From: Chiloscyllium plagiosum
Lineage: Eukaryota
Length of the DNA stretch: 64,000 nt
NCBI RefSeq assembly: GCF_004010195.1
Contig: NC_057718.1
Coordinates: 85,091,136 to 85,155,135, forward strand
Direction: 5' to 3'
The notes beneath the pieces were generated by a model, which saw only the letters and a program-made list of their open reading frames with translations, was not told the DNA's origin and ran no database searches. Positions 6,868-56,256 of this stretch are shown piece by piece (position 1 is the stretch's first letter; each line of letters opens with the position of its first letter). The position numbers and the translations under genes were made by a program.

Positions 6868-7076
6868 AGGAGAAAGTGAGGACTGCAGAGGCTGGAGATC
6901 AGAGTCAAAAAGTGTGGCGCTGGAAAAGCACAGCTGGTCAGGCAGCATCCGAGGAGCAGGAGAATCGGCATTTTGGGCATAAGCTCTGGTGAAGAGCTTA
7001 TGCTTGAAATGTCAACTCTCCTGCTCCTTGGATGCTGCCTGACAGCTGTGCTTTTCCAGTGCCACACTTCTTGACT
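6868..7076. mobile_element. Penelope-derived palindromic element with a degenerate hammerhead core
   Basis: About 85-bp inverted arms centred near 6990; CTGgTGA-a-GAGC-TTAT-GCTT-GAAA-TGTC; flanking duplication gactatatac(ac)aatt(g/c)acaa. Confidence 0.75.
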
Positions 7077-7139
7077 ATATACACAATTCACAATTGCTAT
7101 CACTATGTAAAATGTAACTGGATACATAAACTGAGCAAC

Positions 7140-7565
7140 GCCATCGAGATGTACAACACTGAAGCAGACCCTTTGGTCCAACTTGTCCATGCCAACTAAA
7201 TATCTTAAATTAATCTCATGCGCATCCATTTGCCTTTTACATGTTGTAATTGTACTAGTCTCCACCACTTCCTCTGGCAGCTCATTCCATACACACAACC
7301 TTTACGTGAAAAAGTTGCCTTTTAGGCCCCTTTTAAAATTTTTCCCCTCTCACCCTAAACCTATGCCCTCTAGTTCTGGACTCTCCCACCCCAGGGAAAA
7401 GACCTTGTCTATTTACTCTATCCGTGCTCATGATTTTATAATCCTCTAATAAGGCCACCCCTCAGCCTCTGACACTCCAGGCAAAACAGCCCCAGCCCAT
7501 TCAGCCTTTCCCAGACCTCAAAACCTCCAATTCTGGCAACATCCCTGTAAATCTTTTCTGAACCC
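7140..7565 (-). mobile_element. CR1-type LINE 3' fragment
   Basis: Minus-strand ORF contains VWNELPEEVVE; similar to other CR1 tails in the window. Confidence 0.75.
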
Positions 7566-7993
7566 TTGTGTTGATGAAGAAATCACTGCATGTACAAAGC
7601 ACTTTTCACAATTTCAGGATTTTCCAATGCGTTTTACAAATATTGAAGCACTTTTGAAATAAAGTCACAGTTTGTTACATAGGAAACAGATCATCAATTT
7701 GTGCACAGGGAAGTTCCACTAATGGCACCAAGATCTTGACTGGATGATCTAGTTTAATGGTATTAACTGAGGGATAAACATTGGCCAAGGCATTTGTGCA
7801 GTTAGATCTGCAAAGATGGATGGAGCTTTTGTCCACTGTCCAATCCAAATGATGGCACATCTGGCATGGCAACATGACCTATTGAAATTGAATACAAATT
7901 GGATTTTGTGCTTGAATCTCTGTAGTGGAACTATGATATCTTTAATGAGTATCAGCCAAAGGGTACAGTGCAGCTGTTAAATGTATTACCAAC

Positions 7994-8201
7994 CCCTTCT
8001 TATCAAGTGCCTCAACATCTTCCACTCTCATTCCAAAGATGAAGAGGTTCTCCTCTCCTGCCTCTTCAGCCATTTCTACATTAGCACCATCCATGGTTCC
8101 TATTGTCAAGGCTCCATTCAGCATAAACTTCATGTTCCCTGTGCCCGAGGCTTCTGTACCAGCCGTTGAAATCTGTTCAGACAAGTCGGATGCAGGTATC
8201 A
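7994..8201 (-). CDS. pygb: Glycogen phosphorylase exon 17 (208 nt), including the pyridoxal-phosphate-binding lysine
   Basis: [79 protein letters not shown] is the phosphorylase PLP signature; |gttggt donor. Confidence 0.97.
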
Positions 8202-9334
8202 CTGTTATGAGGAATGAAGGGAGAGGGAAATGAAAGCAACAGTTTAGCACTATTGTTTTAAAACTTGGCAATACTTTATTTTTCCTTTTGAGTTGATCTT
8301 TTCAACTTATAACTTCACTCTAATAAAAACTTGGATTTATACTGCATCTTTACTGATGTGCCTTTATGTCCTACACAGGACTATAACTGGGAAAAATGGG
8401 CAAGATATACAAGGTGATGTTGTGGCATGACATAAAAACCTGATCTATAGATATGTTCGGAGGAGGAGGAGGCTATTAAAGGAGATTAAGGTGGAGAGAT
8501 TTCTAAACAGCTAAAGGCACAGCTGCCAGAGCACAACAATTTGGAAGAATGTGAAGGTCTCAGTTTTTGGGTGGCGAGGTGATGACTGGAGAGGGAGATT
8601 AGTGAAGGGAATTTGGTGCAACTAACAGAGTTTCAATGCAAAAGTCAACAGCCCCTTTATACTAAAGGGCATCCTTTTACCATTATTATCTGTCTCTCAC
8701 ATTTGACTCCTTGACCATTAGTTGATTCCAGTCTGTATGCAGTTTAATACTTTGTGGTTTGCCACCTGACCTTCTTGCTGGATATCCTCAGCAAATGTTA
8801 AACACCCATCAGGAGTGATCTCGAATACAGATTACTGCTCTGCATTTGAGTGGAATCAATCTCTCATGAATTGGGGGGAGGGCATATTAATGGTCTCAAG
8901 AATTGTGATGAAATTATGCAATTGTTGTAGTATTTATGAAGTCCAATTCAAAACTTACAGAAATGCTGTACCAAATCCTCTTAGTAGCTGTTTGTCACAC
9001 TATATTATGCAGCATCATTGACAACCTCATAACATTGAAATAAAACTACCAACCAATGAAGTATTTTGGCATGTCTGGGCACTATTCACTGTAGGAAGAT
9101 AACAGCCAATTTGAGTAATGATGGACTTTAGGAAAAAAGTTAATCCTCATTTAATAATTTTCTGCCCATTTCTAACAAGGTGGCAACACTGCTTTCAGCT
9201 GTTTAACTAAACTGAATGGCCTGTTAGGTTACTCAAAGGCAATTTAGAGTCAAGCACATCGGTCTATAATTGGAGTTACAAGTATGCGAGAGTAAGGACA
9301 ACAAAATGTCATATACATAATATATATAAATAAT

Positions 9335-53089: not shown

Positions 53090-53740
53090 CGGGGCTTCCC
53101 AGACTGTGGGACATTGTTTCCCAGTTGGAGCTTCTAGGGTCGCAAGTTCCAAGGCAACAATGACAACTGTAGAACTCAAAGCTGCAAGACCCATTCAAAT
53201 CCTCAAGTTATTTTTTTTCTAATGATAGCTGTACACTAATGCACAGATATTAGAGATATGATGCTTGTTTCAATAAAAAACTACTAAGTAAACTTCCAGT
53301 TTAAACATTTCCCACCACACTCAACCTCACAACGGCCCTCCCCCACCAACTCAGCAGCTGAAGCACACCTCACGAACACCCCTCCAAATCAGAAACCTTT
53401 CCACCCCTCCTCAGCTAACAGCTAAAGTCCATATCCTAACTGCACAAACCACTCCCTGCTCAGAAATTCTCTTAACCCTCTTTCCACCTATCGCATTTCC
53501 GACACCCCTCCCCCAAGTTCCTCCTCCCTACCTTTTATCTTAGCCTGCTGGACAAACTTTCCTCATTCCTGAAGAAGGGCTTATGCCCAAAACGTCGATT
53601 CTCCTGTTCCCTGGATGCTGCCTGACCTGCTGCGCTTTTCCAGCAACACATTTTCAACCCCAAATTCTCACTCTGGGATCATACAAAATCTGCAGCATTA
53701 AAACGGAGTCACACGGGGCAAGAAAGTTTGAGAAGCGCTG
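53090..53740. mobile_element. Non-autonomous hAT element
   Basis: TIRs cggggcttcccagact / agtttgagaagcgctg; perfect 8-bp TSD gcttagag. Confidence 0.75.
53485..53657 (+). mobile_element. Penelope-derived fragment nested in the hAT element
   Basis: CTGAAGA-A-GGGC-TTAT-GCCC-aAAA-CGTC followed by the family tail. Confidence 0.75.
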
Positions 53741-55413
53741 GCTTAGAGGCAACATTGTTTGAAGAATTTTTATTCACTTATGACTTCTATGTTATTGTAT
53801 TTAAACTGTGTACAAGTTCATCACACAGTACCAAAGGTTGTCAAGCTTGTAATCTTTTCAACAGAGGTTCTCAGCACTTAATGGAGTATGTCAATCACCG
53901 ACATACACAGCACCATATAAAGGAGAAAAATGATAAGCAGAACTACCTCATTCCTGCAATTGAAACAAAGAGCAATTCATATCACAAAAATGTTAGTAAA
54001 GATTGGAAAGAAAACCTATTAGCTCTCCTTGCAATAAATTAAGCTTTAAAATCAGTACGACAATAAGAACTAACATTTATGTAGCAGCTTTAAGCAAATA
54101 GAAATCACAGTGGGCTTTGAAAAAAAAAGTGATTACTTTTAAAATAAATCTAATCAATCTCATAGCAATGGCACTATTTGAAAAGTTGCAGGAGATGTGC
54201 TTTATTTACCCTTTTACCAACACTTAAATTATCTGGACATTTGTCAAGAGGCTACTGCAAATGCCTTCAAGATAAAGACTACTGGTGCAAACCAAAATGA
54301 AGAAGGTTCATTCATGAAGACACCAAACACATTGGGAGATTCAATGAGTGTGTTCACTTCCCAATTTTAGAAGGCCTCATTTTAGTGACTTTAAACAGAA
54401 TGTCAATCAGTAGATACCTTGAAGTAGAACTGATTTGACACAATCCAGGACTGAGTAACAGGAAATGGAATCGGTTTTCATTGTGTGTTTAAGCAGAAAT
54501 GCTGGAATTACACCACCACTCATCAATGGTAAGTTTATTTAACAGGTTGCAAGCTGCTTCTGAAGCTGTAACCATCATGATGTTAGCTCTCCAAACAATC
54601 CTTTGGGAAGACGTTGCAAATTTTGGCAAAGGACTGCAGCCAATGACTGGGGAAGGTTCTTGGCAAGAGGTTGGAGAAGTTAGTCAAATTGTTTCATTTT
54701 GGTACACTGCTTTCATCATTCACAAAACAAAAGTGGAACAACATTTGAAATTGTCATAGGTATCATCCAACAGTTTTCCTTCTTAGTAGCGACCTCAAAT
54801 AACAGTTGATGTTGTCCAGCAAAGTATAGTACTAAGGGAGTCTTATATTGTCAGATACTTCAGATTAGATGCAAACAGCATGCCCTTTTAGATACACATA
54901 AAAGATCCCATGGCATTATTTTAAAGAATAGCAAACAAGTTCACTCTGACATCCTAGTGATTACTCATCTATCAACCCAATCTAAAACAGATGAAAACCA
55001 GTCATTTATTTTTCTGGTTGTTAGTGAGGCATCATAAATCCTAGTGACTATACTTGATTGGCTGTGAAACACACTGGGAGGCCCTGAGGTTGTGAAAAGT
55101 GCTATGTAAGTTCAGTCTCTCTTTTTAATCCAAATTGCTTCCACACATTGGGCTAAAAATTAATCTTTTTCTGTTTTACATGTACGTCTTACTATTTTTA
55201 GAAGTGCCATGATGAAAACTTAACTTAGCAATTCCATTAAAGTACACACTACTATTTGTCTGTATTTTGGGAGATGGTAGTCACAACCTTTTTATGACTA
55301 ATTCCTATATTTAGTCTCAGGGCCTGTTCCAGCAACACATTCAAATCACAGGTTACTCAACTAGATGATTAACACTAAGGCACTGCCCCATTCCCAGTAT
55401 TCTTATCATTAAA

Positions 55414-55442
55414 ATATATATATATATATATATATATATATA
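55414..55442. repeat. (AT)n microsatellite
   Basis: About 14 AT units. Confidence 0.9.
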
Positions 55443-56049
55443 TTCAACAGAAAATGAAGAGCAAAACAATTTTTAAGAAGAAAATATGTCCAATGATTTG
55501 TTTCCAGATTTACTTGTAGCAGTGTTCAAGATCAAACAATTCTGGAAGGTTGGCAATGCTGGCTATAAATAGAGCAGCTTGTAACAATGCATGACTCACA
55601 CAAAGGAGAATCTGCATTGTTGACATGCATCTGACTCCAGAGAGATGAAATTAAAACACTCTAGAAGTAATGTAAGGCTATCTATAAAATGTAAATTATT
55701 GAGTCATGGCCTCTATTTAATATTTTCAGTGATGTTTTAGGTTGAAAGGCAGTTTTCCATTAAATGATTTTCAATCACTGGAATGTTTTTCTGACGAGTG
55801 AACTATAGGCTGATTCTCAATGCTTTCAGGAGGGAGCTGGACCTGGTCTTGACTAGGGCATGAATTTCATTATGTTGAAAGTATGTGGTTGCATAAGTAA
55901 AATTTGATGCACGTGATGTTGGAGTGATTTTAATCATCTGAAGGGGATGAGGGGAATATCATATTTTCCTTTATTGGCCTTAGTTTAATTTTGGCTTTAT
56001 CCAGATGATGTCATGGCTGGGGTTGCAGGAACTAGCTTTTATTCATGAT

Positions 56050-56256
56050 GGAGAAAGTGAGGACTGCAGATGCTGGAGATCAGAGCTGAAAATGTGTTGC
56101 TGGAAAAGCGCAGCAGGTCAGGCAGCATCCAAGGAGCAGGAGAATCGATGTTTCGGGCATGAGCCCTTCTTCAGGAATGAGGAGTGTGCGCTAAGCAGGC
56201 TAAGATAAAAGGTAGGGAGAAGGGACTTGGGGGAGTGGTGTTGGAAATGCAATAGG
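56050..56256 (-). mobile_element. Penelope-derived fragment with a hammerhead core
   Basis: Minus strand CTGAAGA-A-GGGC-TCAT-GCCC-GAAA-CATC within 56143-56178. Confidence 0.75.

What the first reader, a model, noticed from the sequence alone, without database searches (positions are those of the whole stretch)
6868..56256. Dispersed family of tiny hammerhead-bearing Penelope-derived elements with four covarying stem-II variants
Seen: about a dozen 65-510 bp insertions in the pygb introns. Most keep CTGANGA + one extra base + hairpin + GAAA + 4-nt palindrome, but the hairpin differs by family while still pairing: GGGC-NNNN-GCCC (30713, 35990, 41645, 43236, 53569, 56143), GGAGC-AGC-GCTCC (14456), GGGTC-ACCG-GACCC (17190) and GTCACCT-AGAC-AGGGGAC (51239). 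The stem III palindrome switches between ACGT and AGCT. This compensatory variation argues for selection on the ribozyme fold. Most individual copies are decayed, often CpG-type changes such as CGAAA to CAAAA. Inference: they are either non-autonomous ribozyme-carrying retroelements (retrozyme-like) or truncated terminal-repeat products of active Penelope elements. I cannot tell from the sequence whether these particular families have been described.
Basis: partly seen in the sequence, partly recalled or inferred. Interest (0 to 1): 0.7.

Follow-up and report, generated by a model that had tools for sequence, protein, structure and literature searches.

The report
Penelope retroelement stubs with minimal hammerheads
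The small ribozyme-bearing inserts in the introns of this shark gene are real, but they look like ordinary cut-down insertion products of several Penelope-type jumping genes rather than a new mobile family; most stop at the front edge of the ribozyme motif, which is likely where the copied RNA began.

Summary
The inserts are real: 15 (59-510 bp) in introns of a shark pygb gene. They show the published Penelope-like element (PLE) layout: variable target duplications, a head-to-head inverted arm, a 30-42 nt tail on one arm, and a minimal hammerhead. One (50801-51310) carries the end of an RT + GIY-YIG protein (91% identical). They are not one family: A/C/E share a 3' module; B and D stand apart.

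Two corrections. Only 5 of 13 scored arms keep an unchanged core. Stem II changes in pairs between families, not among the listed variants within family A, so selection likely acted on the source elements. Such variation is published (PMC4209133).

Best lead: 14 of 21 arm 5' ends lie at the hammerhead's front edge, and contigs pile up at one base 4 nt before the core, not at the cut site. This suggests run-off copies from the internal RT start to the RNA start. The start site is untested. This scan already noted these elements and this pile-up on other DNA of the same genome. Verdict: new member of a known kind; interest 0.3.

The parts
6869..7075 (.). Family A (A2 type) palindrome: 35-nt tail + inverted arm (6869-6987), forward arm (6986-7075); decayed hammerhead core at 6986; TSD 6849-6860 / 7072-7083
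14355..14548 (.). Family B palindrome: ~30-nt tail + inverted arm ending near the cut site; forward arm starting in the core at 14456 (stem II GGAGC/GCTCC, AGCT); TSD 14337-14354 / 14546-14563
17086..17326 (.). Family C palindrome (homologous to A): tail + inverted arm with core at 17217 (minus), short filler, forward arm with core at 17231; TSD 17078-17085 / 17332-17339
24797..24871 (+). Very decayed A/C-like module; weak match (E 0.007)
28976..29160 (.). Old A/C-like palindrome (C2); centre at a decayed core near 29020-29035; tail on the plus arm; limits approximate
30654..30748 (-). Family A solo copy; starts at the A four bases before the core (30744); core unchanged; TSD 30642-30654 / 30747-30759
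32304..32362 (-). Family A solo copy cut short 3' of the hammerhead (no core); TSD 32289-32303 / 32369-32383
35118..35325 (.). Family A (A1 type) palindrome: tail + inverted arm to 35233, forward arm from the core at 35233; TSD 35102-35115 / 35321-35334
35922..36072 (.). Family A palindrome with short inverted arm + tail; forward arm from 35984, core at 35990; TSD 35904-35912 / 36078-36086
37469..37840 (.). Family E head-to-head insert, centre near 37660: minus arm ends in the A-like 3' module; plus arm (37661-37733) reads as the last codons of a PLE endonuclease, then a stop; right end approximate, no significant TSD
41558..41733 (.). Family A palindrome; inverted arm with an internal deletion of the hammerhead; forward core at 41645; TSD within 41538-41558 / 41728-41748
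43232..43326 (+). Family A solo copy starting at the A four bases before the core (43236); TSD 43220-43231 / 43326-43337
50801..51145 (-). Family D long arm: last 82 codons of a PLE RT + GIY-YIG frame, core at 50913, ~42-nt tail (50801-50841)
51145..51310 (+). Family D short arm without tail, 162 of 166 identical to the long arm; TATAAA at 51186; best-kept hammerhead at 51239; TSD core 50787-50799 / 51311-51323
53471..53657 (+). Family A (A1) longer copy, no tail; reaches 98 nt upstream of the core (53569); TSD 53464-53471 / 53662-53669
56050..56256 (-). Family A (A1) longer copy with tail (56050-56084); core 56174; predicted cut between 56147 and 56146; candidate RNA start at 56178 (A of TCATTC); no TSD found
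2503..64000 (-). Host gene: glycogen phosphorylase, brain form (pygb); 16 exon hits, residues 178-843; all inserts intronic

Best explanation
These inserts have the layout of Penelope-like retroelement insertions and are likely dead-end products made by the reverse transcriptase and endonuclease of several such elements, not a separate mobile family. Shown: variable target duplications; two fixed 3' ends about 35 nt apart (with and without tail); head-to-head arms whose centre differs in every copy; a minimal hammerhead; a protein end in family D; 5' ends gathered at the front edge of the hammerhead. Inferred: the endonuclease cuts both target strands with a stagger of roughly 8-20 nt, and each free 3' end primes cDNA at one of two internal start sites on the element's RNA, as reported in vitro for the anole element (PMC11167929), often helped by 1-5 paired bases at the tail-less start. 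Copying usually runs about 95-130 nt and falls off the 5' end of the RNA, which would begin at the A four bases before the core (initiator-like TCATTC). One cDNA gives a solo stub; two, primed from opposite strands and joined at their ends, give a palindrome. The rarer long copies would come from the 3' repeat of longer transcripts. The hairpin differences were likely selected in the source elements, where the ribozyme would act as a dimer or with protein help; the intron copies decay freely.
For: Layout: all five complete A/B/C palindromes with a recognisable hammerhead centre or forward core, and D, have a tail on one arm only, as described in PMC3846280 and PMC8557442 (passages). TSDs: 11 of 13 inserts score 8 or more against 5 of 400 random pairs. 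Protein: 50897-51139 is 91% identical to the end of P0001, which has RVT_1 (E 3e-6, below Pfam's cut-off) and Atlas neighbours with RT and GIY-YIG (0.96). In E, 8 of 17 residues match a published PLE endonuclease end in register. 5' ends: 14 of 21 arms within -6..+10 of C3 (hand-called). In run X1, 463 contigs leave the element behind 56178 into unrelated flanks (agreement 0.31), as 2257 do at the tail end; raw-read depth falls from 1511 over the hammerhead to 209 just upstream. Two solo copies have a TSD abutting that base. Microhomology: 18 shared bases at 10 tail-less ends, p about 5e-6 (hand-called). Long and short A1 copies are 97% identical over 113 nt.
Against: No full-length parent was found for A, B or C: the protein search with the A module gave nothing, the search with the E peptide returned only three unrelated repetitive proteins, and no genome is held. 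The RNA start is untested; one search lists no place where many RNA reads begin or end. 56178 is not among the six loose-end rows shown for run X12 (18 of 811 rows shown in all), although X12 pieces and joints end at 56177-56179. Part of the depth drop could come from subfamilies whose upstream sequence differs (X21 loose end at 56169, agreement 0.71). 7 of 21 arm ends lie elsewhere. The two arms of 6869 share three private variants and those of 35118 and 35922 one each, which also fits fold-back copying or later conversion. The anole protein started without target homology in vitro (PMC11167929), unlike the microhomology here.
Confidence: 0.75

Rival explanations
1. The ~130-nt unit from the hammerhead front to the tail is a self-propagating non-autonomous element (SINE- or retrozyme-like): it carries an internal promoter and the RT start signals, so short copies beget short copies.
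For: Near-fixed ends and very high copy number (126,790 and 155,093 contigs laid). D. virilis Penelope has an internal promoter, and its 3' pLTR can drive transcription (PMC2377424, passages). pLTRs alone can mobilise DNA in trans (PMC3846280). Head-to-tail joints 56179>56050 occur in 11 (X1) and 6 (X12) contigs.
Against: No tandem array among 15 inserts; centres differ in every palindrome; short and long copies share subfamily bases; about one read in seven runs on upstream of the hammerhead; head-to-tail units are few against 463 plain ends.
Confidence: 0.17
2. Same PLE origin, but the ends gather at the hammerhead because RT stalls or switches template at that fold (or at a bound protein), not because the RNA starts there.
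For: Arms inside palindromes scatter from -6 to +10 and sometimes carry templated filler (C, 17086-17326). Stem II is predicted stable in family A (pair probabilities 0.93-1.0). The anole protein binds this region (PMC11167929).
Against: A stall would be expected on the 3' side of a hairpin (general knowledge), whereas the pile-up lies past the whole motif at one base within an initiator-like word; stem I is predicted barely formed (probability at most 0.03).
Confidence: 0.2
3. The short templates are made by ribozyme cleavage, with or without circularisation, as proposed for retrozymes.
For: A few joints end at the predicted cut (56146>56178 in 4 X12 contigs and 1 X1 contig); the inverted arm of B stops within about 3 nt of its cut site.
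Against: Cleavage would remove the CTGANGA side, yet 14 of 21 arms keep all or part of it; no loose-end row at 56146/56147 among those shown; hammerhead mutants did not change insertion in vitro (PMC11167929).
Confidence: 0.05
4. The palindromes are MITE-like DNA transposons with terminal inverted repeats.
For: Long inverted arms and small size.
Against: Ends are asymmetric (tail on one side), TSD lengths vary, centres vary, solo single-arm copies have their own TSDs, and D carries the end of an RT-endonuclease protein.
Confidence: 0.02

Closest known systems
Insertion units of endonuclease-positive Penelope-like elements: pLTR, adjacent inverted 5'-truncated copy, 30-40 bp tail, TSD (PMC3846280, PMC8557442; passages seen)
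   Same: Head-to-head inverted arm, tail on one arm only, short TSD, strong 5' truncation; TATA/Inr-like words in the pLTR.
   Different: Most inserts here are reduced to the last 95-130 nt, and their 5' ends gather at one base; the passages read do not describe that.
Minimal hammerheads (min-HHR) of metazoan PLEs (Cervera and De la Pena 2014, PMC4209133; parts 1-2 of 4 and supplement passages seen)
   Same: Extra base before stem II, G10.1-C11.1, palindromic 15.2-16.2, weak helix I, several covarying families per genome, mostly solo copies, some pairs on opposite strands 100-700 bp apart.
   Different: Stem II is 4-5 bp in A-C (7-8 in Schistosoma); no shark name was found in the one supplement file searched (the other was not searchable).
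Poseidon element of the green anole, PAc (Frangieh et al. 2024, PMC11167929; parts 1-2 of 4 seen)
   Same: Two internal RT starts that define the tail; both strands cut and extended; hammerhead not needed for insertion; no RNA ends at the cut site.
   Different: PAc started without target homology in vitro, while shark tail-less ends share 0-5 bases with the target; in family D the frame ends inside the hammerhead.
Non-LTR retrozymes of animals (bioRxiv 10.64898/2026.07.22.740005, parts 1-3 of 5 seen; PMC7229834, listing only)
   Same: Non-coding, pLTR-derived, type I hammerhead, found in a chondrichthyan; monomers are dispersed.
   Different: Defined there as tandem repeats with at least two complete hammerheads; the inserts here are solo or head-to-head, and head-to-tail units are a small minority.

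Membership tests
Endonuclease-positive Penelope-like element insertion | Parent frame with RT and C-terminal GIY-YIG endonuclease (family D) | tested here: met
   91% identity to the end of P0001; RVT_1 E 3e-6; Atlas neighbours with RT and GIY-YIG. Pfam on the window fragment alone found nothing.
Endonuclease-positive Penelope-like element insertion | Parent frame for families A, C, E | tested here: inconclusive
   E carries 24 codons matching a published PLE endonuclease end at 8 of 17 residues and shares the 3' module with A (E 2.6e-5); database searches gave no support.
Endonuclease-positive Penelope-like element insertion | Parent frame for family B | not testable with these tools
   One copy in the window, no coding remnant, no genome held.
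Endonuclease-positive Penelope-like element insertion | Adjacent inverted, 5'-truncated copy (head-to-head) | tested here: met
   9 of 15 inserts have two opposed arms.
Endonuclease-positive Penelope-like element insertion | 30-40 bp tail at one end only | tested here: met
   35 nt (A), ~30 (B), ~35 (C), ~42 (D); tail end is the largest loose-end pile, 2257 and 2689 contigs.
Endonuclease-positive Penelope-like element insertion | Short target site duplication of variable length | tested here: met
   11 of 13 score 8 or more against 5 of 400 in the null; none significant for E or 56050.
Endonuclease-positive Penelope-like element insertion | Minimal hammerhead motif in the terminal repeat | tested here: met
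   Rfam found no hammerhead family at E up to 5.
Penelope/Poseidon clade (family D) | No CX2-5CxxC linker between RT and endonuclease | tested here: met
   Read from P0001: no cysteine in the linker before the endonuclease's own CxxC; criterion from PMC8557442.
Penelope/Poseidon or Neptune clade | RT phylogeny | not tested
   No reference set of PLE RTs was available to the tools.
Functional hammerhead ribozyme | Self-cleavage as dimer or with protein | not testable with these tools
   Needs an assay; monomer stem I predicted at probability 0.03 or less.
Non-LTR retrozyme | Tandem repeat of two or more units, each with a complete hammerhead | tested here: not met
   0 of 15 inserts; head-to-tail joints in 11 and 6 contigs only.
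Non-LTR retrozyme | Circular or cut RNA monomers | tested here: inconclusive
   No end pile-up in 3787 poly(A) single-cell reads (2% of run X21); X22 laid nothing; the library type is unsuited.
MITE / DNA transposon | Symmetric terminal inverted repeats and fixed-length TSD | tested here: not met

The most novel reading that the evidence does not exclude
In sharks the dominant product of Penelope-type transposition is a 95-130 nt run-off ('strong-stop'-like) cDNA from the internal RT start to a capped RNA start placed on the first strand of hammerhead stem I. It is primed by a few paired bases on either target strand, so two such cDNAs build each palindrome. This would explain why animal genomes hold thousands of solo minimal hammerheads, map PLE transcription starts from DNA alone, and, through rare head-to-tail jumps of the same unit, supply the seed from which tandem retrozymes arise.
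Probability: 0.4. Interest if true: 0.55.

Novelty: new member of a known kind. Interest (0 to 1): 0.3.

Why it matters
The class, the ribozyme and the between-family covariation are published, so the finding as written adds shark examples. These particular families were not found in my eight paper searches; Dfam and Repbase could not be checked. The value lies in numbers: over 100,000 contigs per run carry family A, with sharp ends. That makes the unresolved PLE integration cycle (where the RNA starts, how the inverted arm forms, whether priming uses target homology) testable by simple junction statistics. These inserts fill 4.6% of the window, and the six palindromes folded are predicted to form 69-84% paired hairpins, so the host pre-mRNA may carry long double-stranded stretches.

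Tried and rejected
Own genome: not held. Rfam: no hammerhead family; only chance microRNA-type hairpin hits on the palindromes. Pfam on the D fragment alone: none. PDB sequence search with P0001: nothing relevant. Protein search with the A-module frame: none. Metagenome scan with an A motif: 20 loci, all chance matches of 31 bp or less, no RT; viral contigs: 0. E peptide: Atlas no usable hit; representatives search gave three unrelated repetitive proteins. Sequencing runs: no RNA holder listed; X22 laid no read, so no test. Bacterial promoter scan does not apply to this host and was ignored. MAFFT put family B one column out of register, so B was left out of the pair count (11 of 13 scored arms used; A35233, with an insertion, was also left out). 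Lunse et al. (PMC5785218) is not held; I know it only from its title and a review passage. Other CTGANGA...GAAA matches (for example 62438, 40170, 63993) lack a stem and lie in or beside exons; rejected. MITE and cleavage-template readings rejected as above.

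
Full report
SETTING. The window lies in a glycogen phosphorylase gene on the minus strand: 16 exon hits cover residues 178-843, and the exon tested is 100% identical to shark proteins named 'brain form'. 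The best protein matches of one insert are from Chiloscyllium punctatum, so the host is probably a bamboo shark or close relative. No whole genome is held.

OBSERVATION. All cited motifs are present. Self-comparison and profile searches give 15 inserts of 59-510 bp, 2,962 bp in all, none in an exon. A strict hammerhead descriptor finds 4 motifs against 0.08 in shuffles; allowing two core changes the excess fades (16 against 11). Of 13 arms scored, 5 have an unchanged core, 4 show G12>A, and only D51239 has an unchanged core with both closing pairs Watson-Crick and a 3-bp stem I. So 'most keep the core' is overstated, while 'most are decayed' is right. A, C, E and two old copies share one 3' module (E 1e-14 to 3e-5 for C, C2 and E; 0.007 for the weakest); B and D show no cross-hit. 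There are therefore about three independent lineages, not one family.

ANATOMY. Nine inserts have two arms pointing outwards from a centre. One arm ends in a tail of 35 nt (A), about 30 (B), about 35 (C) or about 42 (D) that the other lacks; E's ends are too decayed to tell. Eleven of 13 inserts tested have a target duplication scoring 8 or more, against 5 of 400 random pairs; lengths run from 8 to about 20 nt. The centre differs in every palindrome. This is the layout described for endonuclease-positive PLEs in PMC3846280 and PMC8557442 (passages). Family D is tied to a protein: its long arm encodes 82 residues 91% identical to the end of P0001, which has an RT domain, RT and GIY-YIG neighbours and no cysteine linker, the mark of the Penelope/Poseidon clade. 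For A/C/E the link is weaker. Insert E has 24 codons ending in a stop whose pattern matches a published PLE endonuclease end at 8 of 17 positions in register; that it is Neptune-type is my recall. Three database searches did not back this up. B has no coding link.

COVARIATION. On 11 arms of A, C and D, 80.9% of cells pair against 70.6% in shuffles (0 of 500 as high). Six pairs change on both sides (36 of 500 shuffles reach that), and pair types do not exceed shuffles (354 of 500); slid controls pair 16-48%. The tool warns that related rows can beat such shuffles, the structure was read from these sequences, and B was left out, so this is suggestive only. Within family A, over 100,000 contigs per run show listed variants at N7, loop II and CpG-type sites, with no paired stem II change among the 40 rows shown (74 hidden). 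Tolerated positions varying while the stem stays fixed fits selection in source elements. Cervera and De la Pena already list the extra base, G10.1-C11.1, the palindromic 15.2-16.2 pair and families 'full of covariations' (PMC4209133).

WHERE COPIES END. By hand, 14 of 21 arm 5' ends fall within -6 to +10 of C3; the other 7 are four long arms and three short ones. Laying four runs on 55930-56380 gave 126,790 (X1) and 155,093 (X12) contigs, 3,787 RNA reads (X21, 2% of the run) and none for X22. Loose ends with long, unrelated, AT-rich flanks pile at the tail end (56050), near the tail-less end (56089, 56093) and, in X1 and X21, behind 56178 (463 contigs, 175 reads). That base is the A of TCATTC, four before the core and about 30 upstream of the predicted cut (56147/56146). 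True upstream continuation looks different (agreement 0.81 at 56256). Read depth drops from 1,511 over the hammerhead to 209 upstream. Caveats: only 18 of 811 loose-end rows were shown, 56178 is not among the six for X12, and differing subfamily upstream sequence may add to the drop. No place where many RNA reads begin or end was listed; 95% of reads run on into other sequence, so they mostly come from copies inside host transcripts. That TCATTC fits an initiator is recalled knowledge; a TATA plus Inr-like TCACT is reported in a rotifer pLTR, and the Drosophila start lies in the pLTR.

MECHANISM. The anole PLE protein cuts and extends both strands, starts at two internal sites that define the tail, is predicted to be a dimer and does not need its hammerhead for insertion (PMC11167929). 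Applied here (inference): each cut strand primes a cDNA at one start; copying runs to the RNA's 5' end just before the hammerhead; one cDNA gives a solo stub and two give a palindrome. At 10 tail-less ends I count 18 bases shared with the target duplication, against about 3 expected (p about 5e-6; hand-called, several ambiguous), which suggests short pairing at priming and differs from the in vitro report. Arms of three palindromes share private variants, so fold-back copying or conversion remains possible. Monomer folding predicts stem II but almost no stem I, and whole palindromes fold back on themselves, so cleavage by these intron copies is unlikely. I put the PLE origin at about 0.9 and the RNA-start step at about 0.55.

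COMPARISON. It works like, and for D belongs to, the endonuclease-positive PLEs. It fails the tandem criterion of non-LTR retrozymes (bioRxiv 10.64898/2026.07.22.740005), although 11 and 6 contigs show head-to-tail units. It fails the MITE test.

WHAT I COULD NOT SEE. My eight searches found no paper on these shark families or on ends gathering at the hammerhead front. The library lacks most subscription journals, Lunse et al. was not held, one supplement of PMC4209133 was not searchable, the preprint's supplements are closed, figures are not held, and Dfam/Repbase were not available; any of these may describe it. PMC8455134 (one passage) lists Penelope in the whale shark; PMC6155905 and PMC6765202 were seen as passages.

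EARLIER NOTES. Nine notes of this scan on other pieces of the same genome describe such elements, several with the same 5' pile-up. I reached the pile-up idea from the window (note) before seeing the notes that state it. They are not independent evidence.

VERDICT. Observation partly confirmed; interpretation partly supported; new member of a known kind; interest 0.3.

Noticed in passing
   Followed up: partly
window 56050 (loose ends): Loose letters beside the tail end finish in CTA in both DNA runs, so the parent may continue with TAG after CTCAC...TTTCTCC, which would look like a splice acceptor at the tail end. Overall agreement is only about 0.35.
   Followed up: no
window 56050 with 56082/56089 (joints): 23-36 contigs per joint and run join a tail end directly to a tail-less end of the opposite strand, as tandems of whole palindromes or insertion into an element's own end would give.
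   Followed up: no
window 56178: The commonest first loose letter in X1 is C on the plus strand, a G before the candidate RNA start; it could be a copied cap or simply the start of the second arm.
   Followed up: no
proteins P0004, P0006: Predicted Chiloscyllium isoforms of NT5DC1 and MAP3K7 end in the family D endonuclease tail (84-89% identical): exonisation or annotation artefact.
   Followed up: no
window 41558-41643: The inverted arm lacks its hammerhead through a deletion of about 47 nt between two CATC words.
   Followed up: partly
window 56918-60400: Two partial copies, about 80% alike and 2.6 kb apart, of a non-LTR element with RT and zf-RVT hits.
   Followed up: no
window 9356-10121, 15954-16920, 40752-41128, 48271-49038: LINE fragments in both orientations (RT hit at 9356); CR1/L2-type by recall.
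   Followed up: no
window 21913-22209, 28020-28340, 47000-47145, 60777-61011: A SINE-like repeat family, 87-95% alike between the best copies.
   Followed up: no
window 51979-52208: A recent 94-bp duplication, 99% identical, 136 bp apart.
   Followed up: no
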